This document shows positions 20,091-51,353 of a stretch of 51,353 nucleotides of DNA, one piece after another (positions within the stretch are counted from its first letter, which is position 1; the number at the start of each line of letters is the position of its first letter). The DNA is from an uncultured Spirochaetales bacterium (GTDB lineage: Bacteria > UBP6 > UBA1177 > JAKLFG01): NCBI GenBank assembly GCA_964412895.1, contig CAYPQK010000007.1, forward strand, positions 1 through 51,353. Reading direction: 5' to 3'. A program made the position numbers and the translations under genes. The notes below the pieces were generated by a model. That model saw nothing but the letters and a program-made list of their open reading frames with translations, was not told the DNA's origin and did not search any database.

Positions 20091-20165
20091 GCGGGTGTAA
20101 CTCAGTGGTAGAGTGCTAGCTTCCCAAGCTGGAAGTCGCGGGTTCAAATCCCGTCGCCCGCTCCA
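20091..20165 (+). tRNA. tRNA-Gly (anticodon CCC), CCA encoded
   Basis: Hand-folded cloverleaf. Acceptor GCGGGTG/CGCCCGC, D-arm ACTC-AGTGGTA-GAGT, anticodon arm CTAGC-TTCCCAA-GCTGG, T-arm GCGGG-TTCAAAT-CCCGT, discriminator T, then CCA. Confidence 0.9.
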
Positions 20166-20184
20166 AATTTTTTTGCATGGTGAT

Positions 20185-23100: not shown

Positions 23101-23922
23101 GACAACGAACTGGTGAAACTGCTCGGCAAGGCGCGGGTGAAGGGAAAGGCGAAGGACGGCGGCGATGCGCCGTTCGATCCGCGGCTCAATGTCCGCCTGA
23201 CCGGCCGCAACGCCCTGCGGGTGAAGAACAACCTGCTCAAGGCCGACATCACCTTCGATACCCGCATCACCGGGACGCTCTCGCGTCCGGCGGTCGACGG
23301 CACCCTGCAGCTCAACGCCGGGGAGCTCACCTTCAAGCAGAACCGCTTCGCGCTCGACCGCGGCATCGTGACCATCGAGACCGAGGAGAAGATCCGCCCC
23401 TACCTCGACATACAGGGAACAAGCCGCATCTACGCACGGTCCAAGGAGACCGAATACAAACTTCTGCTCGGCGTCACCGGCTACCCGGAAGATCTCGCGA
23501 TACGCCTCACCTCCATGCCGCAGCTTGAGGAGACGCAGGCCTATTCACTGCTCCTGTGGGGCGACTTCTTCGACCCGACCCAGCCGGGGGTCGAGAATCT
23601 CGCGCTGGTGGCGGTGACCGACATCATGGGCATCTCCGACGAGGTCAAGAAGAACTTCCAGCTCACCCGTTTCGAACTGACGCCGAAATACAGCGAAATA
23701 GACTACAAAACGGTGCTCAAGATCATCGCCGTCAAGGAGATATACCCGTTCCTCGTGATGTCGGTCGAATCGAACCCGGCCGATCCGGCCGACCAGATGA
23801 TCATGCTTTCCTACCGCGGTTCGAACTTCGACCTGTCGCTCGACTGGAAATACAAGAACAAGCTCGAGACGACTTACGGCGGGGTCGGCGTGAATTTCAT
23901 CCTCAACTACCTGTTCGAGTAA
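20185..23922 (+). CDS. tamB: translocation and assembly module protein TamB-like (AsmA/DUF490 family)
   Basis: About 1245 aa, with an N-terminal anchor helix (FLSVILLFLLASLFIVRF), a long beta-rich body and a DUF490-like C-terminus. Immediately followed by a BamA-family gene. The ORF-track start (20113) lies inside the tRNA. The first plausible start is GTG 20185, with TTG 20173 as an alternative. Confidence 0.7.
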   Translation: MQRVRFLSVILLFLLASLFIVRFSFYPLLRGYLEIQYDIRVEIGKTGICGIACLSLPTVSIEQPGVFRFTAEGVTVSAGVRRPEPFNYTPVVPRFAVGKAQLTIIDLDALMGDSDEPLFGPELPYFPLEQVAVEHLWVSLSLPGRELKLNDMSLKGDGLYTFTIPEAIYTQKGLRAALLSTAEIVFSAKGRDYAILSLKGSGTGFELSGRATPSGFTGRAVARLDRIVERLDDRPASGEIVADLTGTLFGGIPKLEADIRATGLGWNNEFRLWDIAAHLVADPHGLTVDQLMLFNGNKPFLSLGGVMSWREAMMRGKVTLWDLDFMDTLTRFDVSCWVNMWISGSIDYEFSFNTLVAQYRPRLTARDFGVHDDATLSILDLKDTYQVVGRGEIRPGRITLDEAEVTLRDDTTHLFLHDTWFDLDDYQKFHLIVRPHSWIDIGRVDQIVELPSAGRGNIDVAITSYYRNPRIVGHFRGSSCSVRGFDLERCDLTIELKDFVLSFLGNSIENRTIRSEGSSVALDFNRTPTQIAFLFNNVNGGLNDIGRVLRRKLPDFGGRFFFTAEGKYAGRLTSLTGRAQTDKPRVNGTDIADRIAVSFVDDKDDLRIAKGAILIGDSSLALSGTLDRRTFTLDAKATLDAFFRKDFSFLDDTSFIAPRAVITATGPLTVPKFAAEMFLGRVQYQDVVMGNFSAAAAYDLENGRFTASGNLGEAASFRGEMQGLDPATLTATAKVQDFVHKKGDLFFKTSFDAKWTEGELDARIGKLMIEKRGLFVRNAQPFHIKGRWDRLAIEQVVLDGETVNATVRGEMRKGKPYLEAAGTLFPAVLDSFTGAKLFTEVAGNASFRLTLEDTALSGNLSVHGLGFTLAPYDLPVSALDGSLSFTGGDWKINTLGGLIGGGKLDIKGSGTVTPAWGGQIHLAITNASARQKYVGAFSFSSYLDIVAAAGEEPSIGGEVEIKNITYRDDLSLDNELVKLLGKARVKGKAKDGGDAPFDPRLNVRLTGRNALRVKNNLLKADITFDTRITGTLSRPAVDGTLQLNAGELTFKQNRFALDRGIVTIETEEKIRPYLDIQGTSRIYARSKETEYKLLLGVTGYPEDLAIRLTSMPQLEETQAYSLLLWGDFFDPTQPGVENLALVAVTDIMGISDEVKKNFQLTRFELTPKYSEIDYKTVLKIIAVKEIYPFLVMSVESNPADPADQMIMLSYRGSNFDLSLDWKYKNKLETTYGGVGVNFILNYLFE

Positions 23923-23925
23923 CCG

Positions 23926-40757: not shown

Positions 40758-42932
40758 CTATTTCTGTGATACCGGTTTTGCTTTTACGGGAAGGGTGAAC
40801 TCGAAGCGGTCCTCCAGTTCACCTTCGTACAGGAAGCGGTAGCTTGCATAGTTCGCGAGCACCTTCTTGACATAGTTGCGCGTCTGGAAGATCGGCATAT
40901 TTTCGATGAGTTCGTCGAGCTCCATCCCCTCCATCCGCTTGAGCCAGCGATCGACCTTGCCGGGACCGGCGTTGTAGGCCGCCGCGGCGAGCGCCATACT
41001 CCCCTGATACCGTTTCAGCAGATTGCCGAGGAACTTCACGCCGAAACGGGCGTTGGTGAAGGGCTTTTTCAGCAGGTCCACCGTCACCTTGCCGCCGTAA
41101 TCCTCATCTTTCGCAAGGAGTTGCGCGGTACCGGGGAGAAGCTGGAGGATGCCGATGGCGTTTGAAGGCGACACCGCCTTGGCCTCGAACATGCTCTCCT
41201 GCCGCGCGATGGAGAAGACGAAGAGCGACGAGACGCCGTAGAGCGCCGCGTGCGGCACGATCTCCTCCTCGTAACCCACCGGATACTGCATCCGGGCGAT
41301 CTCACCCGAGAAACCGGTGGTGGTCGGCAGAGACCGTATGAAGGTCCCGGCGAGTCCGTAACTGCCCACCTCGCGCGCAAGGAACGCGGCGAAGAGACGG
41401 TCTTCGGTCATGCCCGATCCGATCACCGTGTCGCGTATCATCCACAGCAGCGACGCCGCCTTGTCGGCGCGGCCGTTCAGCCACAGCGCGGCGACCCACT
41501 GCAGTTCGGGCTGGAACCGGTGTTCGGGGTTGATGAGCGGGGCGGAGGCGGGCCTATCGGGCATCTCGATGCCGATATTCTTGGCGCGCAGGCGCGAGGC
41601 GGCGAGCATTCCGTAGTAAGAAAGCGGCTGTTCAAGCGCTATATCGCGGAAGGCGGCGACCGCGGCGGCGTCGCGCCCCTGCTTCTCGTCGATGCGGGCG
41701 GTCCAGTAGCGGGCCCGCAGACCGTCGTAGCTGTTGCGCAGGGAAGCCTGCGTAATGTTCTGCAGTATCGCGAAGGCATCATCGTAGCGCTTCTGCAGGT
41801 AACGGATCCAGAAAACGAGGAACTCAGCCACTTCGCGGTGTTCGGTCTCCGGATGCTCCGTGAGCAGACGCAGATAGAGCTCTTCGGCGCGCGGCCAGTT
41901 CTCGGTCAGCCGCTCCATGTCGGCGGCATAGTAGAGAAAATCGGCCGCCTTCTCGGCGGTCGCCAGCCGTTCATATCCCTTGAGATAGTAATCTATCGAT
42001 TCGGGGTTCTTGCCGAGCGCCGCGTAGGAGTAGCCGCCCCAGCGGTAGAGGTCGCGCAGGTCCTCTTCCGTGAACTCGAAGCGGTCGAGGTAGCCTTCGA
42101 GGTTCTTATATATCTCTATCGCGTTCTGGTGTTCGCGCTGACGGGTGTTGGCCATCGCCCGCAGGAGACCGGCGCGCCAGTCGGTGATGTCCTTCGCGGC
42201 GTCGCTTTTGGCGAACTTCTTGCCGATGCGCAGACAGCGGTCGTACCGGAAGGCGCGGTAGCTGGCGTACATCTGCCACAGCAGATAATCGCGGCGCTGG
42301 TCCTTCTTTCCGGCCCACACGGCGGTGAACAGGGCGTCTATCTCGTCCTCGAACTCCTCCGAAAGCTTCATGCCGAGACCTTTGAGGAAGGCGAAGGCCG
42401 CCTCGGGATCCTTGCGCATCAGTTCGCGCAGATAGATGCGGATCACCCCCTCGTCGGCGACCGGCCGGTATTCCTGCATGAATTCGGCCATCCGGCCGAG
42501 GTCGGCCAACCGCCGCAGGTAAAGCGGGTGAAGCCGCGAGAAGTAGGGTTCGCCGATATCGTTGATGAGGTCACGGATCATCCCGGGATCGAGTTTCCGC
42601 CACCGGTCGGCGACAAAGAGATACACCGCGACGGCGCGCGACGCGGCCCCCGCCGGACTCACCAATATGCGCGGCGTGAACTCAGGATCGCCGCTGCGGG
42701 TCCCCGCCAGTTCGCCGTAGATGTCCTCGCTGGGCACCTGCGGGTCGAAGATCCGTTCCCCCGCGCCCATCAGGCAGGAAAGGGTGTCGCCGTCGCCGCA
42801 GAACAGCGACCGCTCCTCGGCGGTGAAGGCGCGGTACGGGGCGAAGGCGGCGGAGAACGACTGTTCCTGCGCGCCGACGCGCGAGAAATCAAGCTCCAGC
42901 GATACGATGAGGGCGAGGAGAAGAGCGCTCAT
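40758..42932 (-). CDS. slt: soluble lytic murein transglycosylase (Slt70-like: superhelical N-domain + SLT catalytic domain)
   Basis: Catalytic region SIARQESMFEAKAVSPSNAIGILQLLPGTA...AAAYNAGPGKV. Long TPR-like helical N-terminal part and a signal peptide. Confidence 0.8.
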   Translation of the reverse strand: MSALLLALIVSLELDFSRVGAQEQSFSAAFAPYRAFTAEERSLFCGDGDTLSCLMGAGERIFDPQVPSEDIYGELAGTRSGDPEFTPRILVSPAGAASRAVAVYLFVADRWRKLDPGMIRDLINDIGEPYFSRLHPLYLRRLADLGRMAEFMQEYRPVADEGVIRIYLRELMRKDPEAAFAFLKGLGMKLSEEFEDEIDALFTAVWAGKKDQRRDYLLWQMYASYRAFRYDRCLRIGKKFAKSDAAKDITDWRAGLLRAMANTRQREHQNAIEIYKNLEGYLDRFEFTEEDLRDLYRWGGYSYAALGKNPESIDYYLKGYERLATAEKAADFLYYAADMERLTENWPRAEELYLRLLTEHPETEHREVAEFLVFWIRYLQKRYDDAFAILQNITQASLRNSYDGLRARYWTARIDEKQGRDAAAVAAFRDIALEQPLSYYGMLAASRLRAKNIGIEMPDRPASAPLINPEHRFQPELQWVAALWLNGRADKAASLLWMIRDTVIGSGMTEDRLFAAFLAREVGSYGLAGTFIRSLPTTTGFSGEIARMQYPVGYEEEIVPHAALYGVSSLFVFSIARQESMFEAKAVSPSNAIGILQLLPGTAQLLAKDEDYGGKVTVDLLKKPFTNARFGVKFLGNLLKRYQGSMALAAAAYNAGPGKVDRWLKRMEGMELDELIENMPIFQTRNYVKKVLANYASYRFLYEGELEDRFEFTLPVKAKPVSQK

Positions 42933-44179
42933 CGCTTCTCGATATGCGAGACCGAGGTGAGTATCTGATCGGCCATGACGCGGCAGATCTCCCAGAGGAA
43001 CTTCGCCGCGGCGCCCGGCGACTCCTCAAGCAGCTCCTTTATGACGGAACGGCGTACCACGATGAAGGTGGAAGGCTTGTCTACAAAGAGGGTGTAGTTC
43101 ATCGGCTTCCCGGAGAAAAAGGCGACCTCGCCGATGAGACTGCCGGTGGCAAGCACCTCTATCTGGCGCGACTTGCGCAGGACCGAGACCTGCCCTTCGA
43201 GCATGACGAGCAGTTCCCCCTCGGGGTGTATCGGGAAGGAAATGATGTCGTATTTGTTCTGGGCCCGCACCTCCGACGAGGCGACCAGCCGCTCTATCTG
43301 CTCCTCGTCGAACCCGGAGAAAAGCGGCAGGGAGCGCGCCACGCCCGCGACATCGAGCAGTTTCTCGGCCGCCGCCATCTCCTCGTCGGCCTCGCGCGCC
43401 GTCACAAGTATCGCCGAGAAATTGTCCTCGGCGCCGGCCTTATAAATGGCGTCCATCATCGACCGTATCTCGCGGTCAAGAAAGCGTTTCTCCTCGAGCG
43501 CATCGATGCCGGGGACCGCCAGCTGGAGGGTGAACTCGGCGACCCGCGCCTCGTCGAAATAGCGGTGCACACCGTCGGAGCAGAGAAGGAACCGGTCGTT
43601 CAACCGTATCTCGAAGTTGCGTGTCTCGACCTCGATGGTATCGCACAGGCCGACGGCGCGGGTCAGGGTATTGGAGAGCGATCCGTCCAGCCCGTCGGGG
43701 GCCGCCCCGTATTTGCGTTCATAGTCGCCGCGCATCGTGTGATCGGTGGTCAGCTGGGTCATCACGGCGTTGCGGATGAGGTAGAGCCGCGAATCGCCGA
43801 CATGGAGCAGGAAGCCCTCGGTATCGATGGCCAACAGCAGCGTCAGCGTCGTCCCCATCTTGCCGCGCGAGCCGCTCTTGTCGGCCTCCTGCCAGACGGT
43901 GGTGTTGGCGCGCGTCGCCCCCTCGGCGATAAGGTCGAGCACCTTCTGCCGGTTCTCGGGACTGCGCGAAAGCCGGAACGCCTGCACCACCGCGTAGTGT
44001 TCGATGATGTGCCGCTCCAGCGTGTCGACCGTCAGCTGGGCCGCCACCTCGCCGTGCTTGCCGCCCCCCATGCCGTCGGCGACGATATAGAGCCCCTTTT
44101 CGGGCCACTCGAGGATCCAGTCCTCGTTGTTGGACCGTTTCTTACCGATATCGGTGATGCACGACGAAACAAACCGCAT
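42929..44179 (-). CDS. PP2C-family Ser/Thr phosphatase fused to a cyclic-nucleotide-binding domain
   Basis: PP2C motifs DIGKKRSNNEDW, ADGMGG, LCSDGV. The C-terminal cNMP-binding-like beta-roll contains GSLIGEVAFFSGKPMNYTL. Its stop overlaps the slt start (ATGA). Confidence 0.75.
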   Translation of the reverse strand: MRFVSSCITDIGKKRSNNEDWILEWPEKGLYIVADGMGGGKHGEVAAQLTVDTLERHIIEHYAVVQAFRLSRSPENRQKVLDLIAEGATRANTTVWQEADKSGSRGKMGTTLTLLLAIDTEGFLLHVGDSRLYLIRNAVMTQLTTDHTMRGDYERKYGAAPDGLDGSLSNTLTRAVGLCDTIEVETRNFEIRLNDRFLLCSDGVHRYFDEARVAEFTLQLAVPGIDALEEKRFLDREIRSMMDAIYKAGAEDNFSAILVTAREADEEMAAAEKLLDVAGVARSLPLFSGFDEEQIERLVASSEVRAQNKYDIISFPIHPEGELLVMLEGQVSVLRKSRQIEVLATGSLIGEVAFFSGKPMNYTLFVDKPSTFIVVRRSVIKELLEESPGAAAKFLWEICRVMADQILTSVSHIEKR

Positions 44180-44260: not shown

Positions 44261-44337
44261 TGGCGCGGTCGGCCGGACTTGAACCGGTGGCCTCCGACGT
44301 GACAGGCCGGCGTTATAACCAACTTAACTACGACCGC
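44261..44337 (-). tRNA. tRNA-Asp (anticodon GTC), CCA encoded
   Basis: Reverse complement reads GCGGTCG-TA-GTTA..TAAC-G-CCGGC-CTGTCAC-GTCGG-AGGCC-ACCGG-TTCAAGT-CCGGC-CGACCGC-G-CCA. 77 nt, with one A-C mismatch at the top of the T-stem. Confidence 0.85.
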
Positions 44338-44352
44338 GCCTCAAGGAACAGA

Positions 44353-44428
44353 TGGTGGGTGCTACAGGACTCGAACCTATGACCACCGGCGTGTAAAACC
44401 GATGCTCTACCAGCTGAGCTAAGCACCC
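44353..44428 (-). tRNA. tRNA-Val (anticodon TAC), CCA encoded
   Basis: Reverse complement reads GGGTGCT-TA-GCTC-AGCTGGTA-GAGC-A-TCGGT-TTTACAC-GCCGG-TGGTC-ATAGG-TTCGAGT-CCTGT-AGCACCC-A-CCA. 76 nt. Confidence 0.9.
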
Positions 44429-44443
44429 GACCAGCGGGGCGTA

Positions 44444-44471
44444 TTCTTACCATGCACCACGGCATTGTCAA
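44444..44471 (-). promoter_or_regulatory. sigma70-like promoter for tRNA-Val/tRNA-Asp (TTGACA-N16-TAAGAA)
   Basis: On the minus strand, TTGACA at 44471-44466 and TAAGAA(T) at 44449-44443, preceded by TGg. The tRNA-Val 5' end lies about 16 nt downstream. Confidence 0.45.
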
Positions 44472-44479
44472 CATATTTT

Positions 44480-46909
44480 TTATTTTTCGAGCAGGAGTTC
44501 CTTCATCAGGCCGTCCTGCTTCCGGTTCACGCGGTTGCGATATTCTTCTATGAGTTTGTCTATCGCAACGATGTCGATCTTTTTGCGCGAAAGACGCAGG
44601 TGGGTCAGTTCGGCGATCGCCTCTTCGTAGAGTCCCGCGCCGGCGAGCCGCCGCGCCGCATCGATGCGCCACTGCGGATTACCGCCGATGTCGGCCCCCT
44701 TGAGCAGGTACTTGAGCGAATCGCGCAGTTCTCCCCGTTTCATGAGCCAGTCGCTTTTCCAGCGGTAATAGCGGGCCAGATCGTCCTTGCGAATGAGCGC
44801 CTTGTCCTGCAGGCGGCCGTCCATCGCGGCGCATTTTTCCGGGGCATACTGGATATAGAGCTGGGCAAGCTGAAGGAGATCGTTGAAATTCCCGGTAAGC
44901 GTCGTGCCGCGCTCCATCTGCAGGATGGCGCCGGCATGGTCCTTTTTCTGGCGCAGCGATGCCCCCCGGAACAGATAGTAGCGCCCCTTCGCCGTCATCG
45001 GCAGGCCCTCAAGCCGCGGCTCGATCATATCGAGCAGGGTGTCGAGCAGGTCGTATTTGCCGCGCTGGATATAGCTGTTGCCCGCCGTTTCGAAGAATTC
45101 GATCTCGCGCCCCTCGATGAAGTACTCCACCAGTTCGGGAGCGGCGTTCTGCGCGCCGATGAACTGCGCGATGACCGGCTGAGCGAAAGGCCGTTCGAAG
45201 GGAAGGAGTTCCCGTATCCGTTTGTCGAGTCCCTGCGCCCGGAGCTGGCGGAAGATGTCGTGCAGGAGCGACCCGAGCCGGTTGTCGGGTACCCGCCGCA
45301 CGCTTTCGGTGAATATCGGCAGCGCCCCATCGGTCGAACCAAGCCGCAACAGCGCCGAACCGGTAAGATAGTAGACAAAATAGTAATCGGGTGCCTTGGC
45401 GGTGGCCTCCGACAGATACGGGAGCGACTGCAGGAACGCCCCGTCGGTCTGGGCGTTATAATGGCGGAGCGCCTCGCGCAGGGCCGGCTTGAAGTCGGCC
45501 GGATAGCGCTCTATGAGCGTTTCATACGGCAGGGTATCCTTGACACGGTAAAAATCGAGTTCGTCGCCGGTGGTCGCGCCGTAGATCAGTCCCGCCGCCG
45601 CCAGCATCGTGATGCCGAGGAAGAGATGCCGCCGCCGGCCTTTCAGTTCGAAGGCGCCGGAGGCCATCAGGTAGACCGCCACGGCCGGGAACAGTATCGC
45701 GAGGTCGTGCAGATTGAAATCGAGCGTATTGTGCATAAGGAGGAACAGCAGTATCGCCGCCGCGCCGCACCGGAGATGTTTCCCCCGGTTATACTTCACG
45801 AAGAACCAGACAAAGAGCGCCGCCGCGATGAACGCGACAAGGATGCCGTGCTCCAGCGCGAACTGCACCGGCTCGTTCTCCAGCTGTATGAAGAAGAGCC
45901 CCGGATCGCCCTGATAGTAGGGATAGACATGCATGAAACTGCCGAAGCCCGATCCGGCCAGCCAGAAGTCGGCGAGATATTCCCTGACCGTCACGATGAG
46001 AGCGAACTTGTCGAAGTAGTCGGGGCGCGTCATGTCGAATTCGGCGACGATGAATTGGTAGCCGATATAAAAGGCGGTCAGTACCGCAACGATGACGAAG
46101 AGGGTCGGCAGGGCGACCGCCGTGGTGCGGTGTTTGAGATACTTGAGGGCGCCGAACAGGATGACGGCAAGAAGCGACGCGAGTATGCCGCCGCGTGACA
46201 GCGTCATGATGACACCCAGCAGATTCACGAAGAACAGCGCGCCGTAGAAGACCCGCGCCCGGGCGAAGTCGGCCTCGGTGGCCGTCGCGAGGGAAAGGAG
46301 CGCCGCCACGCCGAAGAAGGCGGCGGCGTGGTTCATGTTGATAAGGGTCGGATGGATGAGGAGCGGCCCGCGCAGGAGCGACCCGAGCCACTGTGTCTCG
46401 CCGGTCATCTTGAGGAACACGCCGAACACGAAGACCGCGACGGCGGTCAGGATGATGGTATCGGTGATGGCGCGCCGCCAGCCGCGGTGCTCCCCTTCCA
46501 GCGTCCGCTGGAGCATCACCGCGAACAACACAAGCGCCCCGGTCCGCAGGAGCGAATATATCGTGTCGGGCAGAGACATCGTAAGCGGCCGCCAACCGGC
46601 AGGTCCGGCGAGGGTATGGAAATAATGCGCCTTGGGCGAGAGGAGCGCGATGAGCGCCGGCGGCAGCGGCAGGAGCTGGAAGAGCCCCCACAGGATGAGC
46701 ACCCCGAGCGGCAGGAGCAGGTACGGGACGAAGAGCCGTTTGCCCGCGACGAACATCCAGCCGCCCCACGCAAGGTAGAGCGCGGCGGTGAGCGCGATGA
46801 GGATCATGTTGACCGGGAGATGGGTATAGACCCCGCCCAGCAGGAACGGGGCGAGGATGATCGGCGCCGCGAACGAAAGGAATATGAGGATGTTTTTCAC
46901 GATCGGCAT
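44480..46909 (-). CDS. O-antigen ligase/polymerase-family (Wzy_C) polytopic membrane protein with large C-terminal TPR-like domain
   Basis: About 12 TM helices. Wzy_C-like motifs MTLSRGGILASLLAV and ...QLENEPVQFALEHGILVAF. The C-terminal 370 aa or so are helical-repeat (TPR-like). Confidence 0.65.
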   Translation of the reverse strand: MPIVKNILIFLSFAAPIILAPFLLGGVYTHLPVNMILIALTAALYLAWGGWMFVAGKRLFVPYLLLPLGVLILWGLFQLLPLPPALIALLSPKAHYFHTLAGPAGWRPLTMSLPDTIYSLLRTGALVLFAVMLQRTLEGEHRGWRRAITDTIILTAVAVFVFGVFLKMTGETQWLGSLLRGPLLIHPTLINMNHAAAFFGVAALLSLATATEADFARARVFYGALFFVNLLGVIMTLSRGGILASLLAVILFGALKYLKHRTTAVALPTLFVIVAVLTAFYIGYQFIVAEFDMTRPDYFDKFALIVTVREYLADFWLAGSGFGSFMHVYPYYQGDPGLFFIQLENEPVQFALEHGILVAFIAAALFVWFFVKYNRGKHLRCGAAAILLFLLMHNTLDFNLHDLAILFPAVAVYLMASGAFELKGRRRHLFLGITMLAAAGLIYGATTGDELDFYRVKDTLPYETLIERYPADFKPALREALRHYNAQTDGAFLQSLPYLSEATAKAPDYYFVYYLTGSALLRLGSTDGALPIFTESVRRVPDNRLGSLLHDIFRQLRAQGLDKRIRELLPFERPFAQPVIAQFIGAQNAAPELVEYFIEGREIEFFETAGNSYIQRGKYDLLDTLLDMIEPRLEGLPMTAKGRYYLFRGASLRQKKDHAGAILQMERGTTLTGNFNDLLQLAQLYIQYAPEKCAAMDGRLQDKALIRKDDLARYYRWKSDWLMKRGELRDSLKYLLKGADIGGNPQWRIDAARRLAGAGLYEEAIAELTHLRLSRKKIDIVAIDKLIEEYRNRVNRKQDGLMKELLLEK

Positions 46910-46917
46910 CGTATCCC

Positions 46918-48474
46918 CTAAAAGACGCGGTAGAACAACTGGACCGTCACGGCGTGGTAAGCGCGGATATCCTTGGTGATGAATGGCTGACGCTCGACCT
47001 GAAAGAGATACTGGATAGTGGCGAAGCTCGATATCCAGAAAGAGAGGGTGGTCTCCGAACTGAAATAGGTGTCTTCCGGTTCCTCGACGGTCACCAGCGA
47101 CACGAACTCCTCCTTCAGTTCAACGAACGAGAACGGCATCAGGGTAAGGTAGACGGTGAACTCGGGACCGTGCGAGTAACTGAAGGGATCGATACGCCGC
47201 AGTTCCTTTTCGGGAGTGGCGCCGTCATCGTTCGATTCATCGTAGTAGAACGGCGCGATATCCTGCTTGAAGCCGTATCCGGCGCGGGCCGTCAGAAAAA
47301 GGAGAGTTCCCCAGCGATACTCGAAATTGAGTCCGCCGCCTTCCTGTATCAAGGTAGGCGACCCGGTCTTCGATATCAGGATGTCGTCGGCCGGCATCGT
47401 CCAGCGACGGCCGTCGCGCTCGACACCGACATAGGTGTCACCGGTGGCCGAATAGTCACGGTGGTCAAAGAAGAATCGGGTATTGACCCGCGTGGAGAGA
47501 TAGGGACCGACCCACTTCCGGAGGCGGTAGATGACCGAGGTGTCGAACTTCGCCATGTCGCGGGTATTGCGCAGTATCTTGTCGTCCTTCAGCATGAAGT
47601 CCTCGAACAGGTCGAGCCGCGCGTTGTAGAGCCAGTCGCCGTCGTCGTAGGTGGCGCCGAAGTTGAGGGCGCTTCCCAGCGCCAGCGTGTTCTGATCTGC
47701 CGTGTCGCCGGTGAAATAGCCGTTGTTGACGAAAGACAGGTTGCCCGACAGGAGCAACCGGATATCCCAGTTCCCCTTCTCGGTCATCTGCTCATCGCCC
47801 GTTACCTCGCCGCCGCCGAGCAGTTGCCGCGTCTTCTCGTCGAAGATGAGCAATACCGTGGCCGCGGTCCGCTCCACCAGACGCACCGTCACGAAATTAC
47901 GGTACGAATCGGGCGCCTCGCCGCGCTTGGCGACCCGGAACAGTCCCGGCTTGAACAACCAGATGATCGGTTTCTCGCCGCGGGTCTCGTCGGCGCCGGT
48001 GCCGGTGCCGTAGTAGAGTTTGCTCTCCTCTTCGGTCACCTGATAGCCTTCGCGGAGCGGATTGTTGTAGGCGTCTATCACGCGGACGATGAGGGCGCTC
48101 CACAGCGGCATCACCACCGTCACCCGTTCGGGTTTGAGCGTCGCGTAGAAGACCATCCGCGTATCGAGCGGCCCCGATCCGATGTAGAGGACATAGGTCC
48201 CCGGATCAAGCGCCACCCGCTTGCCCGGTTCGGCGTCGGTGATGAACTCCTCGCCGCGGTAGACGGCGTAGGTCGGTTCGCGCTGACTGTCGACGAGGAA
48301 CGGGACGAACAGCGCCCCCTTCTCCATCGGCACCAGCGTCGCGTCGCGGGCGAGCTGTTCGCGTATCTCGGGGTCGGTCACCTGCTGGGAATCGAGCGTA
48401 AGACCATAGAGCGCACCGCCCCACAGTATCAGAACGCACAGGATGGTGGCATAAAGCGTCCTACTTTTTCTCAA
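46918..48474 (-). CDS. predicted outer-membrane beta-barrel protein with N-terminal periplasmic domain (unknown family)
   Basis: Signal peptide MRKSRTLYATILCVLILWGGALYG. The C-terminal half has an alternating amphipathic beta pattern rich in Y/F/G. It ends ...VQLFYRVF with a terminal Phe beta-signal. Overlaps the upstream gene by 14 nt. Confidence 0.5.
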   Translation of the reverse strand: MRKSRTLYATILCVLILWGGALYGLTLDSQQVTDPEIREQLARDATLVPMEKGALFVPFLVDSQREPTYAVYRGEEFITDAEPGKRVALDPGTYVLYIGSGPLDTRMVFYATLKPERVTVVMPLWSALIVRVIDAYNNPLREGYQVTEEESKLYYGTGTGADETRGEKPIIWLFKPGLFRVAKRGEAPDSYRNFVTVRLVERTAATVLLIFDEKTRQLLGGGEVTGDEQMTEKGNWDIRLLLSGNLSFVNNGYFTGDTADQNTLALGSALNFGATYDDGDWLYNARLDLFEDFMLKDDKILRNTRDMAKFDTSVIYRLRKWVGPYLSTRVNTRFFFDHRDYSATGDTYVGVERDGRRWTMPADDILISKTGSPTLIQEGGGLNFEYRWGTLLFLTARAGYGFKQDIAPFYYDESNDDGATPEKELRRIDPFSYSHGPEFTVYLTLMPFSFVELKEEFVSLVTVEEPEDTYFSSETTLSFWISSFATIQYLFQVERQPFITKDIRAYHAVTVQLFYRVF

Positions 48475-49060
48475 GTTCGGCGGCGATCTTTTGTATGAAT
48501 TTCTCGATCTCTTTGTCCATCATCTCGCCGAGCGCCCGGACCGTTTGCACCGCCTCCGGGCCGAAGACCTCGCGCCGCTCCTCGACCGGCAGCGAAACGA
48601 GCACCTTCCCCGTCTTGAACTCCTTGAGCGTCAGCACCATGTTGAGGTGGGCGAACCAGCGGTCGCCGCTGTCGAACTGATCGATCTCGAGCACCTCGCC
48701 CGATATCTCGTAGTCGGGCGTCTTGTCGAGCTTGATGATGAGATCGGAGAAGAGCCGGGCCGTCTTGAGGTGATTGTAGAGGACATCGGTCAGCATATCC
48801 TCGGGCCGCGACGCCCAGTAGTGGTTGGTGAAGTAGAATATCTCGTAAGGGGAGGTGCGGTAGACGAGGTTATAGCGCCGGTAGACCTTGTCGATCTCGA
48901 GCGTCTTGATGCGGGCCGTCGCCTCTATCTGGGCGACCGGCGCCGGGTTGGGCCGGTAGTAGACGCGGTAGTAGTGTTTCTGCCCCTGCGACCCGAAACA
49001 GCCGCCGAGCAGGAACGCCGCCGCGACGGCGCACAGCGCCGCGATCCATCCCTTTCTCAT
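48461..49060 (-). CDS. PqiC/YmbA-like ABC-type transport auxiliary lipoprotein (DUF330 family)
   Basis: Lipobox FLLGGC|FG. About 200 aa with a ...YYRVYY...VYRTSPYEIFYFTNHYWASRPEDMLTDVL... pattern typical of DUF330. Its start overlaps the mlaD-like stop (ATGA). Confidence 0.65.
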   Translation of the reverse strand: MRKGWIAALCAVAAAFLLGGCFGSQGQKHYYRVYYRPNPAPVAQIEATARIKTLEIDKVYRRYNLVYRTSPYEIFYFTNHYWASRPEDMLTDVLYNHLKTARLFSDLIIKLDKTPDYEISGEVLEIDQFDSGDRWFAHLNMVLTLKEFKTGKVLVSLPVEERREVFGPEAVQTVRALGEMMDKEIEKFIQKIAAELEKK

Positions 49061-50037
49061 TTTCCGTCTCCCGAACCGGTGCCCGACAGGATGGCGGCCG
49101 GATTCTCCATGATGATGCGGGTGAACTCGTTGAAGTTGTGCATACTCTCCGAAAGGTTCGCGAGCGACTGGTTGATGTCCTCCTGACTGCGCATGAGCGT
49201 CAGGTTGACCGTCTCGGTGGTCTTCTGCAGAGAGTCAAGCAGCAGCGATATCTTCTCCATCGTCCCCTTGATGTCGGCCTCGCGCACCGCGCCGCCCAGC
49301 TCGTCGGCGGTCCCCTTGAACGAGGTGAGCGTGCCGGTGATGACGCCGTCGCTCGCCGTCATGCCGCGGATATCGGTCACCACGGCGTCTATCTGGGACA
49401 TGCTCTGATTGAGCTTCTTCATGAACTGGGCCGATTCGCCGGTCAGCGCGTGGACATTGTCCTTGTTCTGCGCGAGTATGGTATTGAGCGATGTCGTTAT
49501 GCCGGCGACATTATTCGCTATCTGTTTGACCGTTTCGGGCTTTATCTCTTTGACGACATTGTTCACATTGTTCAGGATGATCTCGAGCTTCTCGGCGATG
49601 ACCTCCGCCTTGCCGGTGATCTGGTCCCACTGCGAATCGATGGACGGGACCTCGCCGTTCTTCGGGATATCCTTGAACTTGCCGCCACCCTTGAGTTCGA
49701 GGAACTTGAGTCCGGTGATGCCGATATTGCCGAGCTGGGAGGTGGTCCCCTCCTTCATCGGCGTTCCCGGCTTGAGGCAGTAATCTATACGGATGATGGA
49801 GCTGTCCATCTCGTCTATCGATATCTGCTGGACACTGCCGATGTTCATTCCTTGGAACTTGACGCTCGATCCCTCGGAGAGTCCGGCGACCGATACATTC
49901 TGGAATTTCGAGTAGTAACAGTCCTCGCGCTTCAGCACCTTGTCGCCGACGATGATACCGATAACGAGAAGGAATAGGGCGACACCGAATAAAAAGAAAA
50001 GGGCGACGCGCCGTTTTTGAGCCGGGGTGATCTGCAT
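49057..50037 (-). CDS. MlaD/MCE-domain protein (single MCE domain + helical C-terminal extension)
   Basis: N-terminal TM helix (VALFFLFGVALFLLVIGIIVG). MCE domain YYSKFQNVSVAGLSEGSSVKFQGMNIGSVQQISID. Long helical tail. Confidence 0.8.
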   Translation of the reverse strand: MQITPAQKRRVALFFLFGVALFLLVIGIIVGDKVLKREDCYYSKFQNVSVAGLSEGSSVKFQGMNIGSVQQISIDEMDSSIIRIDYCLKPGTPMKEGTTSQLGNIGITGLKFLELKGGGKFKDIPKNGEVPSIDSQWDQITGKAEVIAEKLEIILNNVNNVVKEIKPETVKQIANNVAGITTSLNTILAQNKDNVHALTGESAQFMKKLNQSMSQIDAVVTDIRGMTASDGVITGTLTSFKGTADELGGAVREADIKGTMEKISLLLDSLQKTTETVNLTLMRSQEDINQSLANLSESMHNFNEFTRIIMENPAAILSGTGSGDGK

Positions 50038-50063
50038 TACCGTAAACTAAACGATCCGGCGTC

Positions 50064-50092
50064 ATTCTAAAGATTGCGGCGCCGTTTGTCAA
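50064..50092 (-). promoter_or_regulatory. near-consensus sigma70 promoter for the MCE operon (TTGACA-N17-TAGAAT)
   Basis: On the minus strand, TTGACA at 50092-50087, a 17-nt spacer, then TAGAAT at 50069-50064. It sits in the 89-nt gap between the spoVR stop and the mlaD-like ATG. Confidence 0.55.
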
Positions 50093-50126: not shown

Positions 50127-51353
50127 TTACAGCGTCTCTCTGACTATCTTGCGGTCGGCGCAGTGATAGCGGACGCGGCGGTATTCGCGCTGCGGTTCCG
50201 CCCCCTCCGTTTCGGGTTTTTTGACGACTATCTCGGTGGTTTCCAGCGTCACTTCGCCGCCCCACAGGAATTCTATGCCGATAAGCGTATCGCCGATGAA
50301 GTCCTTGACCAATTGCTTTCCCTCGAACTGATGCACGAGGGCAAGGCTCTTTTCGGTGGTGTGCGCCTCGTCGACCGTGATGACCGGCGGATGGTAGAGG
50401 TGTTCAAGCAGCATCTGTTTGTAGTCCTCGGCTTTGCGGCTCTTGATGTAGTACTGCCAGACGCCGCGCTCCTCGTCGAGCCGCTTGCCGACCACGAACA
50501 GATCGAACCGGTCGACGAATTCCTGATCGACGAAGGTATTGATGAGCATGAAGTCGCTGAAGTTGTCGCGCAGGGCGAAGATCGCCTTCTTCCCGGTGCC
50601 GGTCTTCTCGTCGAACGCCTCGCGCAAGTTGGCGTCGCTCACCTGCTGGAAACGGCGCGACATCTTGCCGCGGTCGGCCAGCTCCTCGACCCAGCGGATG
50701 AGCCGGAGTCCCACGGCGTAGGGATTGAGCCCGACGCGGCTGATGCTCGTCACCCCGGAGTTGACCCGCGCATAGTCCGATTCATGGCCGACGATCCGCT
50801 CGTCGCGCAGGAACAGTTCCTCGTGCCAGTAACTCGCCCACCCTTCGTTGAGGATCTTCGACCGTATCTGCGGCTGGAAGTAGAGCGCCGTATTGCGGAC
50901 CACCTGAATGAGCGACCGCATCCAGCCGTTCTCCTCTTTCTTGAGGAGCGGCGACCGGTCATGGATGAACTGTAGAAGGTCGTGGTAGCGCGTCTCCTTC
51001 TTCGCCCCCTGCCGTTCGAACTTCGCGACGAATTCGGGATAGCGGCCGCGCACCTCGGTGAAGAACAGTTCTTCGACCGCGGTCCCCTTCTCGTCCACCA
51101 GTTTGTTGTACTTCTCCAGTTCGCGGTAGTAGTCGGCGGTCGGCAGTTTCACGATCTCCTGCAGGAACGGGCCGAAGTAGAAGGCGGTCCGCGCCGAGGG
51201 ATCGAGTTCGGAGGGATATTCGCGCTCCGCCATCTCGGAGAAGTAGCCGGTGATGTTGTCGATGCCGCGCGCGAATTCGATGACATAGTCGACCCAGCGG
51301 CCGTATTCGCTCCGCAGGTTGGCGACCAGCCGTTTGTCGGCGAGCGCCTGCCC
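50127..51353 (-). CDS. spoVR: SpoVR-family protein, 5'-truncated at window edge
   Basis: LNEGWASYWHEELF and surrounding SpoVR-like sequence. The reading frame stays open for the 40 codons upstream of the track's Met (51233) up to nt 51353, so the gene probably continues beyond the window. Confidence 0.75.
   Translation of the reverse strand, partial: GQALADKRLVANLRSEYGRWVDYVIEFARGIDNITGYFSEMAEREYPSELDPSARTAFYFGPFLQEIVKLPTADYYRELEKYNKLVDEKGTAVEELFFTEVRGRYPEFVAKFERQGAKKETRYHDLLQFIHDRSPLLKKEENGWMRSLIQVVRNTALYFQPQIRSKILNEGWASYWHEELFLRDERIVGHESDYARVNSGVTSISRVGLNPYAVGLRLIRWVEELADRGKMSRRFQQVSDANLREAFDEKTGTGKKAIFALRDNFSDFMLINTFVDQEFVDRFDLFVVGKRLDEERGVWQYYIKSRKAEDYKQMLLEHLYHPPVITVDEAHTTEKSLALVHQFEGKQLVKDFIGDTLIGIEFLWGGEVTLETTEIVVKKPETEGAEPQREYRRVRYHCADRKIVRETL

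What the first reader, a model, noticed from the sequence alone, without database searches (positions are those of the whole stretch)
44480..50092. Orphan MCE operon: MlaD-like + PqiC-like lipoprotein + beta-barrel + Wzy/O-antigen-ligase-TPR protein, with no ABC permease, ATPase or PqiA
A near-consensus promoter (TTGACA-N17-TAGAAT) sits directly in front of the MCE gene. The four genes are tightly packed:
- an ATGA overlap between the first and second genes,
- a 14-nt overlap between the second and third,
- an 8-nt gap between the third and fourth, with the RBS spanning the stop codon.

Known MCE systems (Mla, Pqi, Let/Yeb, Mycobacterium Mce) pair the MCE protein with MlaE/MlaF-type ABC components or PqiA (established knowledge). 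None is in this operon, and the upstream neighbour is spoVR.

Instead the operon supplies an outer-membrane-type barrel ending in ...FYRVF and a 12-TM Wzy_C-family protein with a large periplasmic TPR domain.

Inference: a self-contained trans-envelope module. The components would be an IM-anchored MCE ring, a lipoprotein, an OM barrel, and a glycan- or lipid-handling polytopic protein. It could move or ligate a lipid-linked glycan or glycolipid rather than retrograde phospholipid. This combination is not one I know to be described.
Basis: partly seen in the sequence, partly recalled or inferred. Interest (0 to 1): 0.7.

Follow-up and report, generated by a model that had tools for sequence, protein, structure and literature searches.

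The report
MCE lipid conduit with barrel and Wzy
A conserved four-gene operon from an uncultured two-membrane bacterium encodes an envelope-spanning lipid tunnel plus a previously undescribed outer-membrane barrel partner, and a sugar-ligase-like membrane protein sits where the tunnel's usual ATP-driven pump genes lie in relatives.

Summary
Four tightly coupled minus-strand genes (44480-50037) follow a TTGACA-N17-TAGAAT promoter. They encode:
- a single-domain MCE protein;
- a PqiC-like lipoprotein;
- a 518-aa protein with a periplasmic beta-sandwich region and a 12-strand outer-membrane (OM) barrel;
- a 13-TM Wzy_C protein with a periplasmic TPR superhelix.

No mlaE, mlaF or pqiA lies in the 51-kb contig.

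The four genes are colinear, with conserved spacing, in 15 other non-redundant loci whose flanks differ; a 16th (L002) lacks the MCE gene.

The MCE-lipoprotein-barrel triad is not intrinsically orphan. In Fibrobacterota, Myxococcia, Pseudomonadota and KSB1 relatives it sits in one operon with STAS-MlaE and MlaF. In the nearest outgroups, mlaE-mlaF occupy exactly the slot that Wzy_C-TPR holds here.

The barrel family has 834 representatives, and 35 of the best 150 are PqiC-like::barrel fusions. This marks the barrel as the OM partner that a 2026 paper still calls unknown.

Best reading: a Mla-Pqi-chimeric (Mpc/PA3211-14-like) trans-envelope conduit with a dedicated barrel, coupled in this lineage to a glycan-handling enzyme.

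I could not test whether MlaFE is unlinked or truly replaced. Verdict: a new variant of a known kind.

The parts
50064..50092 (-). Sigma-70-like promoter: TTGACA, 17-nt spacer, TAGAAT. It lies in the 89-nt gap between spoVR and the MCE gene.
   Evidence: 11 of 12 consensus positions. TTGACA plus a -10-like hexamer recurs upstream of the MCE gene in L003-L006.
49057..50037 (-). MCE protein, 326 aa. It has a conserved cytoplasmic N-terminus (MQITPAQKRRVALFF), one TM helix, one MCE domain (aa 46-118) and a long helical C-terminal region ending in a G/S/T-rich tail.
   Evidence: PF02470 E 5e-12. TIGR00996 aligned over aa 18-297. The best solved relative is 13hr_I, a 312-aa Mce/MlaD protein, E 3.8e-14 over aa 13-231. 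About 83 orthologue clusters exist.
48461..49060 (-). PqiC-like outer-membrane lipoprotein, 199 aa, with lipobox LLGG-C21. Its start overlaps the MCE stop codon by 4 nt.
   Evidence: PF03886 E 3.6e-12. pqiC NF033620 weak hit. PqiC 8q2c weak hit. A lipobox is present in all orthologues.
46918..48474 (-). Outer-membrane protein, 518 aa. It has a signal peptide, a highly conserved periplasmic beta-sandwich region (aa ~50-225; nt 47800-48327) and a 12-strand beta-barrel (aa 236-518; nt 46921-47769) ending ...FYRVF.
   Evidence: AF2 mean pLDDT 79.6. Foldseek matches FapF, OmpG, NanC, FadL and porins, E down to 5.6e-7. 24 of the 44 invariant columns lie in the first 200 aa. The family has 834 representatives, and 35 of the best 150 are fused to a PqiC-like domain.
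45557..46909 (-). Wzy_C (O-antigen ligase/polymerase superfamily) membrane domain of the 809-aa protein. It comprises a 12-TM core with a large periplasmic loop (aa 291-345), plus TM13 (aa 425-451).
   Evidence: PF04932 36.9 bits, above the 31.7 cut-off. AF2 pLDDT 86.4. N191, N193, H194, S238, R239, K301, E344, Q349 and D397 are invariant even against distant homologues from glycan loci. K/R-rich loops alternate, as the positive-inside rule predicts (read from the sequence).
44486..45526 (-). Periplasmic TPR superhelix (aa 462-808) of the same protein.
   Evidence: TPR Pfam hits. Profile matches to PDB TPR proteins. Foldseek TPR matches. Its position after the 13th TM helix, which follows KGRRRH, places it in the periplasm.
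44261..44428 (-). Downstream boundary of the operon: tRNA-Val(TAC) and tRNA-Asp(GTC), with their own TTGACA-17-AAGAAT at 44471-44443.

Best explanation
Shown
- The operon encodes a trans-envelope MCE conduit of the Mla-Pqi chimeric kind (Brucella Mpc, P. aeruginosa PA3211-PA3214).
- Family membership, domain architecture, operon conservation, the lipoprotein::barrel fusions and the positional swap of mlaEF for Wzy_C-TPR are all supported by tool results.

Inferred by analogy with PA3213/PA3214
- The MCE protein would be anchored in the inner membrane (IM) and form a hexameric ring with a helical needle.
- No oligomeric states or contacts were tested here.

What is new in the OM part
- The lipoprotein has a dedicated OM partner: the 518-aa protein.
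- Its very conserved periplasmic beta-sandwich region would contact the lipoprotein ring or needle tip.
- Its 12-strand barrel would anchor the complex in the OM and may open a route into it.

What is new in the IM part
- In related lineages the same three proteins are driven by a co-operonic STAS-MlaE/MlaF ABC transporter.
- In this lineage those two genes have been replaced, at the same 3' position, by a 13-TM Wzy_C enzyme carrying a periplasmic TPR superhelix.

Inference on function
- I take this enzyme to be functionally coupled to the conduit.
- It would build or ligate a glycan on a lipid carrier or acceptor at the periplasmic face of the IM.
- Its TPR arm would hold it against the MCE/lipoprotein/barrel assembly.
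- The cargo in this lineage would then be a glycan-bearing lipid rather than plain phospholipid.
- Cargo identity, direction of transport and energy source are all inferred.

Open point
- I judge it somewhat more likely than not (about 60:40) that an unlinked MlaFE still energises the system. This was not testable here.
For: Family assignments

Conservation of the module
- MCE-AUX-barrel-Wzy_C is colinear in 15 other non-redundant loci, and a 16th (L002) has AUX-barrel-Wzy_C without the MCE gene. Pairwise identities fall as low as 52% (MCE), 42% (barrel) and 27-33% (Wzy_C), and the flanks are unrelated.
- Only these four gene families recur in the flanks.
- The MCE/AUX 4-nt overlap occurs in 14 of 15 loci, and the barrel-to-Wzy gap is -1 to +20 nt.

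The barrel
- Barrel fold.
- 35 of 150 family representatives are PqiC-like::barrel fusions.

ABC genes in relatives
- STAS-MlaE and MlaF are co-operonic in types A (E-F-MCE-AUX-barrel), B (MCE-AUX-barrel-E-F) and D (MCE-AUX-E-F).
- In the MCE tree, the types with mlaEF downstream of the MCE gene group apart from type A and are the closest by identity, 31-36% against 28-32%.

The Wzy_C-TPR protein
- Wzy_C active-site-type residues are invariant, and the nearest non-MCE-linked homologues sit in polysaccharide loci.
- The TPR domain is periplasmic.

Literature
- The OM partner of PqiC-like lipoproteins is stated to be unknown (PMC13631591).
- The organism has two membranes: a TamB plus Omp85 pair is in the window.
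Against: - No direct evidence of physical contact between Wzy_C-TPR and the other three proteins. No multimer modelling was possible.
- No glycosyltransferase, flippase or sugar-nucleotide genes are linked to the operon in any clade-C locus.
- The Wzy_C subtype (ligase, polymerase or protein O-glycosyltransferase) could not be resolved.
- The Wzy acquisition and the loss of mlaEF linkage may be a single evolutionary event in one clade. The perfect anticorrelation (0 of 16 other clade-C loci (plus the window) against 15 of 15) is therefore not 32 independent observations.
- L002 keeps AUX-barrel-Wzy without MCE, and L013 has the barrel alone.
Confidence: 0.45

Rival explanations
1. This is an ordinary ABC-driven Mla/Mpc phospholipid transporter. 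The mlaE/mlaF genes have merely moved elsewhere in the genome. The Wzy_C-TPR gene is an envelope-biogenesis passenger that shares the transcript but not the function.
For: - The MCE N-terminus keeps the AQKxR(L/V)(G/A)xF motif shared with all MlaE-linked homologues.
- MlaDEF are reported in almost all diderm phyla (PMC10665443).
- Unlinked components are known: MceG in M. tuberculosis (PMC13492129).
- A lone MCE gene exists in L038.
- No glycan-synthesis genes are linked to the operon.
Against: - Adjacency of Wzy_C-TPR is kept in all 16 other clade-C loci as well as the window, with gaps of -1 to +20 nt, while its sequence diverges to 27-33% identity.
- In every other architecture of this family, mlaEF stay in the operon (15 of 15).
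- Close Wzy_C-TPR homologues (E < 1e-112) in every context examined lie in this operon.
Confidence: 0.25
2. Non-orthologous displacement. The Wzy_C-TPR protein has replaced MlaFE as the inner-membrane partner of the MCE hexamer. This would give an ATP-independent conduit, analogous to PqiA-PqiB or LetA-LetB, in which glycan ligation to a lipid is coupled to hand-off into the tunnel.
For: - Wzy_C-TPR occupies exactly the slot of mlaE-mlaF in the nearest outgroup operons, MCE-AUX-barrel-E-F.
- No MlaE, MlaF or PqiA lies within 51 kb here, nor within the roughly 8-10 kb of flank held at the other clade-C loci.
- Non-ABC partners of MCE proteins exist (PMC13631591).
- The clade-C MCE N-terminus and C-terminal tail carry clade-specific, near-invariant changes.
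Against: - There is no precedent for a Wzy_C protein pairing with an MCE protein.
- The MlaD-type N-terminal motif is retained.
- Genome-wide absence of MlaFE is untested.
- L002 has AUX-barrel-Wzy without an adjacent MCE gene.
Confidence: 0.2
3. The functional core in this clade is a glycan export route: a Wzy_C polymerase or ligase, a TPR bridge, a lipoprotein ring and an OM barrel. This resembles PelB/PelC or Wzy-dependent export. The MCE protein would be an accessory.
For: - L002 retains AUX-barrel-Wzy_C-TPR without MCE.
- PqiC-like lipoproteins share a core fold with PelC, LptE and CsgG, all of which work with barrels (PMC13631591).
- Distant Wzy_C-TPR homologues lie in polysaccharide loci.
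Against: - MCE is present with a 4-nt overlap in 14 of 15 loci.
- The AUX-barrel pair is ancestrally tied to MCE plus MlaFE.
- A 12-strand barrel is small for polymer export.
- There are no linked glycosyltransferases.
Confidence: 0.08

Closest known systems
P. aeruginosa PA3211-PA3214 and Brucella abortus MpcEFDA (Mla-Pqi chimeric MCE systems; PMC13631591, PMC12436622)
   Same: - A single-MCE-domain protein of about 310-330 aa with a helical needle. The best PDB hit is 13hr_I (312 aa), E 3.8e-14.
- An adjacent PqiC-like OM lipoprotein.
- Relatives of the window operon also carry MlaE and MlaF in the same operon.
   Different: - Here there is no MlaE or MlaF in the operon or the contig.
- There is an extra dedicated OM barrel protein.
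- There is an extra Wzy_C-TPR protein.
- MlaE in the relatives carries an N-terminal STAS domain.
E. coli PqiABC
   Same: An MCE needle plus a PqiC-family OM lipoprotein ring, with no ATPase in the operon.
   Different: - PqiB has three MCE domains and pairs with PqiA.
- No PqiA family hit was found here.
- PqiABC has no barrel gene.
Veillonella parvula long MlaD with a C-terminal beta-barrel (PMC10665443), and chloroplast TGD1-3 with the TGD4 barrel (TGD composition as summarised in PMC13492129)
   Same: An MCE conduit that ends in an OM beta-barrel.
   Different: - Here the barrel is a separate gene associated with, and in other genomes fused to, the PqiC-like lipoprotein, not to the MCE protein. 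None of the 150 representatives hits the MCE HMM.
- The paper reports no barrel on MlaD in FCB phyla. The Fibrobacterota loci here show a separately encoded barrel instead.
LptD/LptE and PelB/PelC (barrel plus lipoprotein OM translocons)
   Same: - An OM barrel working with a lipoprotein of a related alpha/beta core fold (stated in PMC13631591).
- A TPR element in the pathway, as in PelB.
   Different: - No sequence relationship of the barrel to LptD or PelB was detected.
- The TPR domain is on the inner-membrane Wzy_C protein, not on the barrel.
- The barrel has 12 strands, against 26 in LptD and 16 in PelB (strand numbers from general knowledge).
Wzy_C superfamily: WaaL O-antigen ligase, Wzy polymerase, PglL/PilO O-oligosaccharyltransferases
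   Same: - PF04932 hit above the curated threshold.
- A 12-TM core with a large periplasmic loop.
- A conserved SRGG arginine and other invariant polar residues.
   Different: - An extra 13th TM helix and a 350-aa periplasmic TPR superhelix.
- The gene sits in an MCE operon rather than a glycan locus.
- The subtype is unresolved: phmmer of the TM domain against PDB found nothing, and Foldseek returned only TPR matches.

Membership tests
MCE (MlaD, PF02470) superfamily | MCE domain detectable above the curated threshold | tested here: met
   46.3 bits against a 25.1 cut-off, aa 46-118.
MCE (MlaD, PF02470) superfamily | N-terminal single-pass membrane anchor | tested here: met
   A hydrophobic stretch at aa ~11-32 follows MQITPAQKRR. 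It aligns with the TM region of the MlaD/PA3213-type chains.
MCE (MlaD, PF02470) superfamily | Hexameric ring with a central hydrophobic pore | not testable with these tools
   No multimer prediction is available.
Mla-Pqi chimeric systems (Mpc / PA3211-PA3214) | One MCE domain followed by a long helical C-terminal needle | tested here: met
   Best PDB hit is 13hr_I (312 aa), aligned over aa 13-231. TIGR00996 aligns over aa 18-297. No structure model of this protein was made.
Mla-Pqi chimeric systems (Mpc / PA3211-PA3214) | PqiC-like (PF03886) lipoprotein encoded next to the MCE gene | tested here: met
   (E 3.6e-12); lipobox LLGGC; 4-nt overlap with the MCE gene.
Mla-Pqi chimeric systems (Mpc / PA3211-PA3214) | MlaE permease and MlaF ATPase in the same operon | tested here: not met
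   No hit in the window or in any clade-C locus with HMMs built from relatives, and no Walker A/LSGGQ ORF. The feature is met in the A, B and D type relatives. Elsewhere in the genome: not testable.
PqiABC / LetAB | PqiA/LetA-type inner-membrane partner and a multi-MCE-domain protein | tested here: not met
   No PqiA-family Pfam hit among about 40 window ORFs. The protein has a single MCE domain.
Wzy_C (PF04932) superfamily | Wzy_C domain above threshold, on a polytopic (about 12-TM) protein with a large periplasmic loop | tested here: met
   (36.9 bits against 31.7). The AF2 model shows 12+1 TM helices and a loop at aa 291-345.
Wzy_C (PF04932) superfamily | Assignment to a functional subtype (WaaL, Wzy or PglL) through catalytic Arg/His equivalence | tested here: inconclusive
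   R239, H194, K301, E344 and D397 are invariant. However, there is no alignable solved relative, the TIGR04370 hit is only 18 bits against a 40-bit cut-off, and H393 is replaced by Q in some homologues.
Outer-membrane beta-barrel proteins | Signal peptide, a closed antiparallel barrel with an even strand number, and a C-terminal aromatic residue | tested here: met
   AF2 shows 12 long strands over aa 236-516. Foldseek probability is 1.0 to FapF, OmpG, NanC and FadL. The sequence ends FYRVF.
DUF3078 (PF11276) | Pfam score at or above the gathering cut-off (25 bits) | tested here: inconclusive
   The window protein scores 17.8 bits. Several homologues carry precomputed PF11276 hits, and P0187 scores 36.6 bits. 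The family is therefore related to, or overlaps, DUF3078.
Veillonella-type MlaD::barrel fusion | Beta-barrel fused to the C-terminus of the MCE protein | tested here: not met
   The barrel is a separate gene. None of the 150 barrel-family representatives hits the MCE HMM, whereas 35 of 150 hit the PqiC-like HMM.

The most novel reading that the evidence does not exclude
The Wzy_C-TPR protein is a third kind of inner-membrane partner for MCE tunnels, after the MlaFE-type ABC transporters and PqiA/LetA. It would have displaced MlaFE in this lineage. The result would be an ATP-independent machine in which transfer of a glycan onto a lipid at the periplasmic face is coupled directly to passage through the MCE needle, the PqiC-like ring and the dedicated barrel to the cell surface. 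That would be an Lpt-like glycolipid export route built from MCE parts.
Probability: 0.2. Interest if true: 0.85.

Novelty: new variant of a known kind. Interest (0 to 1): 0.62.

Why it matters
Two points make this worth following up.

1. **A candidate for the missing OM partner**
   - How MCE tunnels with PqiC-like lipoproteins connect to or cross the outer membrane is an explicitly open question. Giacometti et al. 2026 (PMC13631591) propose 'unknown OM binding partners'.
   - This locus and its relatives name a concrete candidate: a conserved barrel protein with a periplasmic domain.
   - It is always encoded next to the lipoprotein, and it is fused to it in about a quarter of family representatives.
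   - That makes the question directly testable by multimer modelling or cryo-EM of a system where the partner is known.

2. **A natural swap of the energising module**
   - The swap of mlaEF for a Wzy_C-TPR enzyme at the same operon position is a natural experiment on what can sit at the inner-membrane end of an MCE conduit.
   - It points to a possible link between MCE transport and lipid-linked glycans.

If the mlaEF genes turn out to be merely unlinked, the second point shrinks to an operon curiosity. The first point stands either way.

Tried and rejected
- **Exact-sequence look-up of the 518-aa protein:** nothing on record.
- **Foldseek of the Wzy_C-TPR model:** returned only TPR proteins, so it says nothing on WaaL versus Wzy.
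- **Sequence searches against PDB:** phmmer of the TM domain (aa 1-450) found nothing. The whole-protein profile was swamped by TPR hits.
- **Rfam on the window:** only the three tRNAs, so no riboswitch or leader precedes the operon.
- **Search for a fifth conserved gene in clade-C flanks:** none. Only antisense shadow ORFs and, in the closest relatives, the PP2C and SLT neighbours recur.
- **Genes downstream of Wzy_C in L025:** only weak SGNH/AlgX-like (E ~0.008) and Sel1 hits, too weak to use.
- **Whether the clade's genomes encode MlaE, MlaF or PqiA elsewhere:** could not be determined. The window is a complete 51,353-bp contig. Collection scans and context look-ups were exhausted, and the two long clade-C records (OY763407.1 and JBMNFX010000001.1) can only be read +/-10 kb around the match.
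- **Rejected - chance ORFs or a non-operon:** the GC3 pattern, conserved spacing and conservation across phylum-level labels argue against it.
- **Rejected - a barrel fused to MCE, as in Veillonella:** 0 of 150 representatives.
- **Taxonomy:** not resolved beyond the labels in MAG records ('uncultured Spirochaetales', 'Candidatus Sumerlaeota', 'bacterium').

Full report
**1. The observation**

The region holds four minus-strand ORFs:

| ORF | Coordinates | Length |
|---|---|---|
| MCE | 49057-50037 | 326 aa |
| AUX (PqiC-like lipoprotein) | 48461-49060 | 199 aa |
| Barrel | 46918-48474 | 518 aa, TTG start |
| Wzy_C-TPR | 44480-46909 | 809 aa |

- All four have the GC3-rich codon pattern of real genes in this 60% GC contig.
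- TTGACA-N17-TAGAAT lies at 50092-50064 in the 89-nt spacer after spoVR.
  - The promoter scan as a whole is not enriched over shuffles (3 found, 2.0 expected).
  - However, a TTGACA/-10-like pair recurs upstream of the MCE gene in relatives with different flanks.
- Downstream, the operon is bounded by tRNA-Val and tRNA-Asp, which have their own promoter-like site.
- Pfam and NCBIfam assign MlaD/MCE, ABC_trans_aux (PqiC family) and Wzy_C plus TPR. The 518-aa protein has only a sub-threshold DUF3078 hit.

**2. The parts**

*MCE protein*
- It has one TM helix, one MCE domain and a long helical C-terminal region.
- Its best solved relative is a 312-aa 'Mce/MlaD domain-containing protein', 13hr_I (E 3.8e-14, aa 13-231). 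Next comes mycobacterial Mce1.
- From its length and the 2026 paper, I take 13hr_I to be PA3213 of the PA3211-PA3214 system.

*Lipoprotein*
- It has a lipobox (LLGG-C21) and weak similarity to PqiC.

*518-aa protein*
- The AF2 model (pLDDT 79.6) shows a signal peptide, a beta-sandwich region (aa ~53-224) and 12 long strands (aa 236-516).
- Foldseek matches it to FapF, OmpG, NanC, FadL/TodX and porins, with E down to 5.6e-7.
- It ends ...FYRVF.
- More than half of its invariant columns lie in the periplasmic N-terminal region. That suggests a binding surface.

*Wzy_C protein*
- The AF2 model (pLDDT 86.4) shows a 12-TM core with a large loop at aa 291-345.
- A 13th TM helix follows, preceded by KGRRRH, and then a TPR superhelix at aa 462-808.
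- K/R-rich loops alternate as the positive-inside rule predicts, so the TPR domain is periplasmic.
- Polar residues N191, N193, H194, S238, R239, K301, E344, Q349 and D397 are invariant even against distant homologues. The protein therefore looks like a working enzyme, not a decayed scaffold.
- Its subtype could not be resolved.

**3. Conservation of the four-gene module**

- Homologues of the barrel brought in loci from genome and metagenome collections.
- tblastn with the four window proteins shows MCE-AUX-barrel-Wzy_C colinear in L001, L003-L012, L014, L025, L028 and L030. L002 has the same order but lacks the MCE gene.
- These MAGs are labelled 'Spirochaetales', 'Candidatus Sumerlaeota' or just 'bacterium'.
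- Identities to the window fall to 52% (MCE), 42% (barrel) and 27-33% (Wzy_C).
- Flanking genes differ.
- An all-against-all comparison of the flanks finds no fifth conserved gene.
- Spacing is conserved: the 4-nt MCE/AUX overlap occurs in 14 of 15 loci, and the barrel-to-Wzy_C gap is -1 to +20 nt in all 16.
- This is a real operon, and Wzy_C-TPR is part of it.
- Close Wzy_C-TPR homologues form a tight set of about 21 clusters (E < 1e-112). Scores then drop to E 6e-17.
- The more distant Wzy_C-TPR proteins sit in ordinary polysaccharide loci with glycosyltransferases, Wzz and flippases, and have no MCE genes nearby.

**4. The triad is not intrinsically orphan**

More distant relatives show three other architectures:

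| Type | Gene order | Loci | Lineage labels |
|---|---|---|---|
| A | STAS-MlaE, MlaF, MCE, AUX, barrel | L015-L021, L035 | Myxococcia, Pseudomonadota, Fibrobacterota, Chitinivibrionales |
| B | MCE, AUX, 510-aa barrel, MlaE, MlaF | L040, L041 | candidate division KSB1; unlabelled ('bacterium') metagenome contig |
| D | MCE, AUX-like, STAS-MlaE, MlaF (no barrel) | L039, L042 | not labelled |

- The 510-aa protein in type B matches the barrel HMM at E 1e-96.
- HMMs built from these MlaE and MlaF proteins find nothing in the window or in any clade-C locus.
- mlaEF are therefore in the operon in 15 of 15 non-C loci with enough flank, and in none of the 16 other clade-C loci nor the window.
- In types B and D, whose MCE proteins are the closest to the window's outside clade C (31-36% identity, against 28-32% for type A), mlaE-mlaF lie downstream. 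That is exactly where Wzy_C-TPR lies in clade C.
- The simplest history is replacement of mlaE-mlaF by the Wzy_C-TPR gene at the 3' end of an MCE-AUX-barrel-E-F operon.
- This may be a single event, so the anticorrelation is not statistically independent.

**5. The barrel as the OM partner of the lipoprotein**

- A full HMMER scan of 1.84 billion representatives finds 834 family members (562 at E <= 1e-10).
- Of the best 150, 35 carry an N-terminal PqiC-like domain. Pfam confirms this on 10 of 10 tested, and a local HMM finds all 35.
- P0019 is one such fusion and sits next to an MlaD gene.
- None of the 150 is fused to MCE, MlaE or MlaF.
- Recurrent gene fusion plus invariant adjacency is strong genomic evidence that the lipoprotein and the barrel protein act as one OM unit.
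- Giacometti et al. 2026 state that how PqiC/PA3214-type systems deal with the OM is unclear, and that 'unknown OM binding partners' are one possibility (PMC13631591).
- Cooper et al. 2024 mention no such partner.
- Grasekamp et al. 2023 describe barrels fused to MlaD itself, and report none on MlaD in FCB phyla. The Fibrobacterota loci here show a separately encoded barrel instead.
- Searches for DUF3078, PF03886 and MCE plus Wzy_C found no description of this arrangement.
- DUF3078 proteins are listed in an outer-membrane-vesicle proteome table, which is consistent with an OM location.

**6. How it most likely works**

*Shown:* families, folds, topology, operon structure, fusions and the positional swap.

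*Inferred by analogy with PA3213/PA3214 and Mpc (PMC13631591, PMC12436622):*
- A hexameric MCE ring and needle anchored in the IM.
- The needle tip held by a ring of the lipoprotein at the OM.

*Inferred here:*
- The barrel protein's periplasmic domain binds that ring or tip.
- Its 12-strand barrel anchors the assembly in the OM and may open a route into it.
- In clade C, I take the Wzy_C-TPR protein to be functionally coupled. It would be an IM enzyme handling a lipid-linked glycan at the periplasmic face, with a TPR arm long enough to reach the conduit.
- The cargo would then plausibly be a glycan-bearing lipid.

*Energy source: open.*
- The MCE N-terminus keeps the AQKxR(L/V)(G/A)xF motif of all MlaE-linked homologues.
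- MlaDEF are near-universal in diderms.
- Unlinked components have precedent, such as MceG.
- I therefore lean about 60:40 towards an unlinked MlaFE.
- On the other side, the strict retention of mlaEF in every other architecture and the same-slot replacement keep true displacement alive. So do the clade-specific changes at both MCE termini: the N-terminal motif, and a G/S/T-rich C-tail in place of the ...LLRG plus charged tail of the homologues.

**7. Exceptions and limits**

- L002 has AUX-barrel-Wzy_C without an MCE gene nearby.
- L013 has a lone barrel paralogue next to yidC.
- L038 has a lone MCE gene among sugar-nucleotide, glycosyltransferase and Wzi genes.
- No multimer modelling was possible. 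No structure was predicted for the MCE protein or the lipoprotein.
- The window is an entire contig, so genome-wide absence of mlaEF or pqiA is untested.
- Taxonomy rests on MAG record titles.
- The organism is a diderm: a TamB-like gene and an Omp85/POTRA gene lie at 20113-26925.

**8. Verdict**

- The system is a new variant of the known Mla-Pqi chimeric MCE systems, with two notable features:
  - a dedicated barrel partner for the PqiC-like lipoprotein, which is widespread and apparently undescribed;
  - a lineage-specific swap of MlaFE for a Wzy_C-TPR enzyme.
- Interest is 0.62.
- The most novel reading not excluded is Wzy_C-TPR as a new class of IM partner for MCE tunnels. I give it about 0.2 probability.

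Noticed in passing
window 2945-4783 and 4812-6200 (+): Two adjacent large proteins carry multiple Kazal-type serine-protease-inhibitor domains (Kazal_1 E 5e-23 and 2e-11). Kazal arrays are unusual in bacteria.
   Followed up: no
window 6300-8069 (+): A 589-aa ORF lies in a low-GC island (47% against about 60% for the contig) and has Receptor-L-domain/LRR-like hits. It is possibly horizontally acquired.
   Followed up: no
window 20091-26925 (+): A TamB-like gene (1269-aa ORF) is followed directly by an Omp85/POTRA protein (999 aa), forming a TAM/BAM-type pair. tRNA-Gly (20091-20165) overlaps the mechanical ORF start at 20113, so the true TamB start must lie further downstream.
   Followed up: partly
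window 42929-44179 (-) and 40758-42932 (-): A PP2C Ser/Thr phosphatase is fused to a cyclic-nucleotide-binding domain. It overlaps the start of an Slt-type lytic transglycosylase with TPR repeats, whose best NCBIfam hit is the spirochaete BB0259 flagellar-assembly transglycosylase (below cut-off). This pair is conserved only in the closest relatives.
   Followed up: partly
window 44261-44471 (-): tRNA-Val(TAC) and tRNA-Asp(GTC) lie immediately after the Wzy_C stop codon. They are preceded by a second TTGACA-17-AAGAAT site only 9 nt after the stop.
   Followed up: yes
MCE C-terminus: window 49057-49100 (-); loci L001-L042: In all Wzy_C-linked MCE proteins the C-terminal tail is G/S/T-rich (...ENPAAILSGTGSGDGK). 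MlaEF-linked homologues have ...ENPSLLLRG followed by a charged tail. In PA3213 this tail is the peptide that docks onto the lipoprotein (PMC13631591). Such low-complexity S/T/G tails could also be O-glycosylation targets of a PglL-like Wzy_C enzyme, but that is speculative.
   Followed up: partly
L002 2866-7536; L013 9220-10746; L038 10001-10987: Three loci depart from the module. L002 has AUX-barrel-Wzy_C without an MCE gene. L013 has a lone barrel paralogue beside yidC. L038 has a lone MCE gene among sugar-nucleotide, glycosyltransferase, sulfation and Wzi genes.
   Followed up: partly
L015-L021, L039, L042 (mlaE genes, e.g. L018 6219-7304): In these relatives MlaE carries an N-terminal STAS domain, that is, an MlaB-like module fused to the permease.
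   Followed up: no
window 50127-51233 (-): A SpoVR-family gene, truncated by the contig end, lies directly upstream of the operon. It is not conserved next to the module in other loci.
   Followed up: yes
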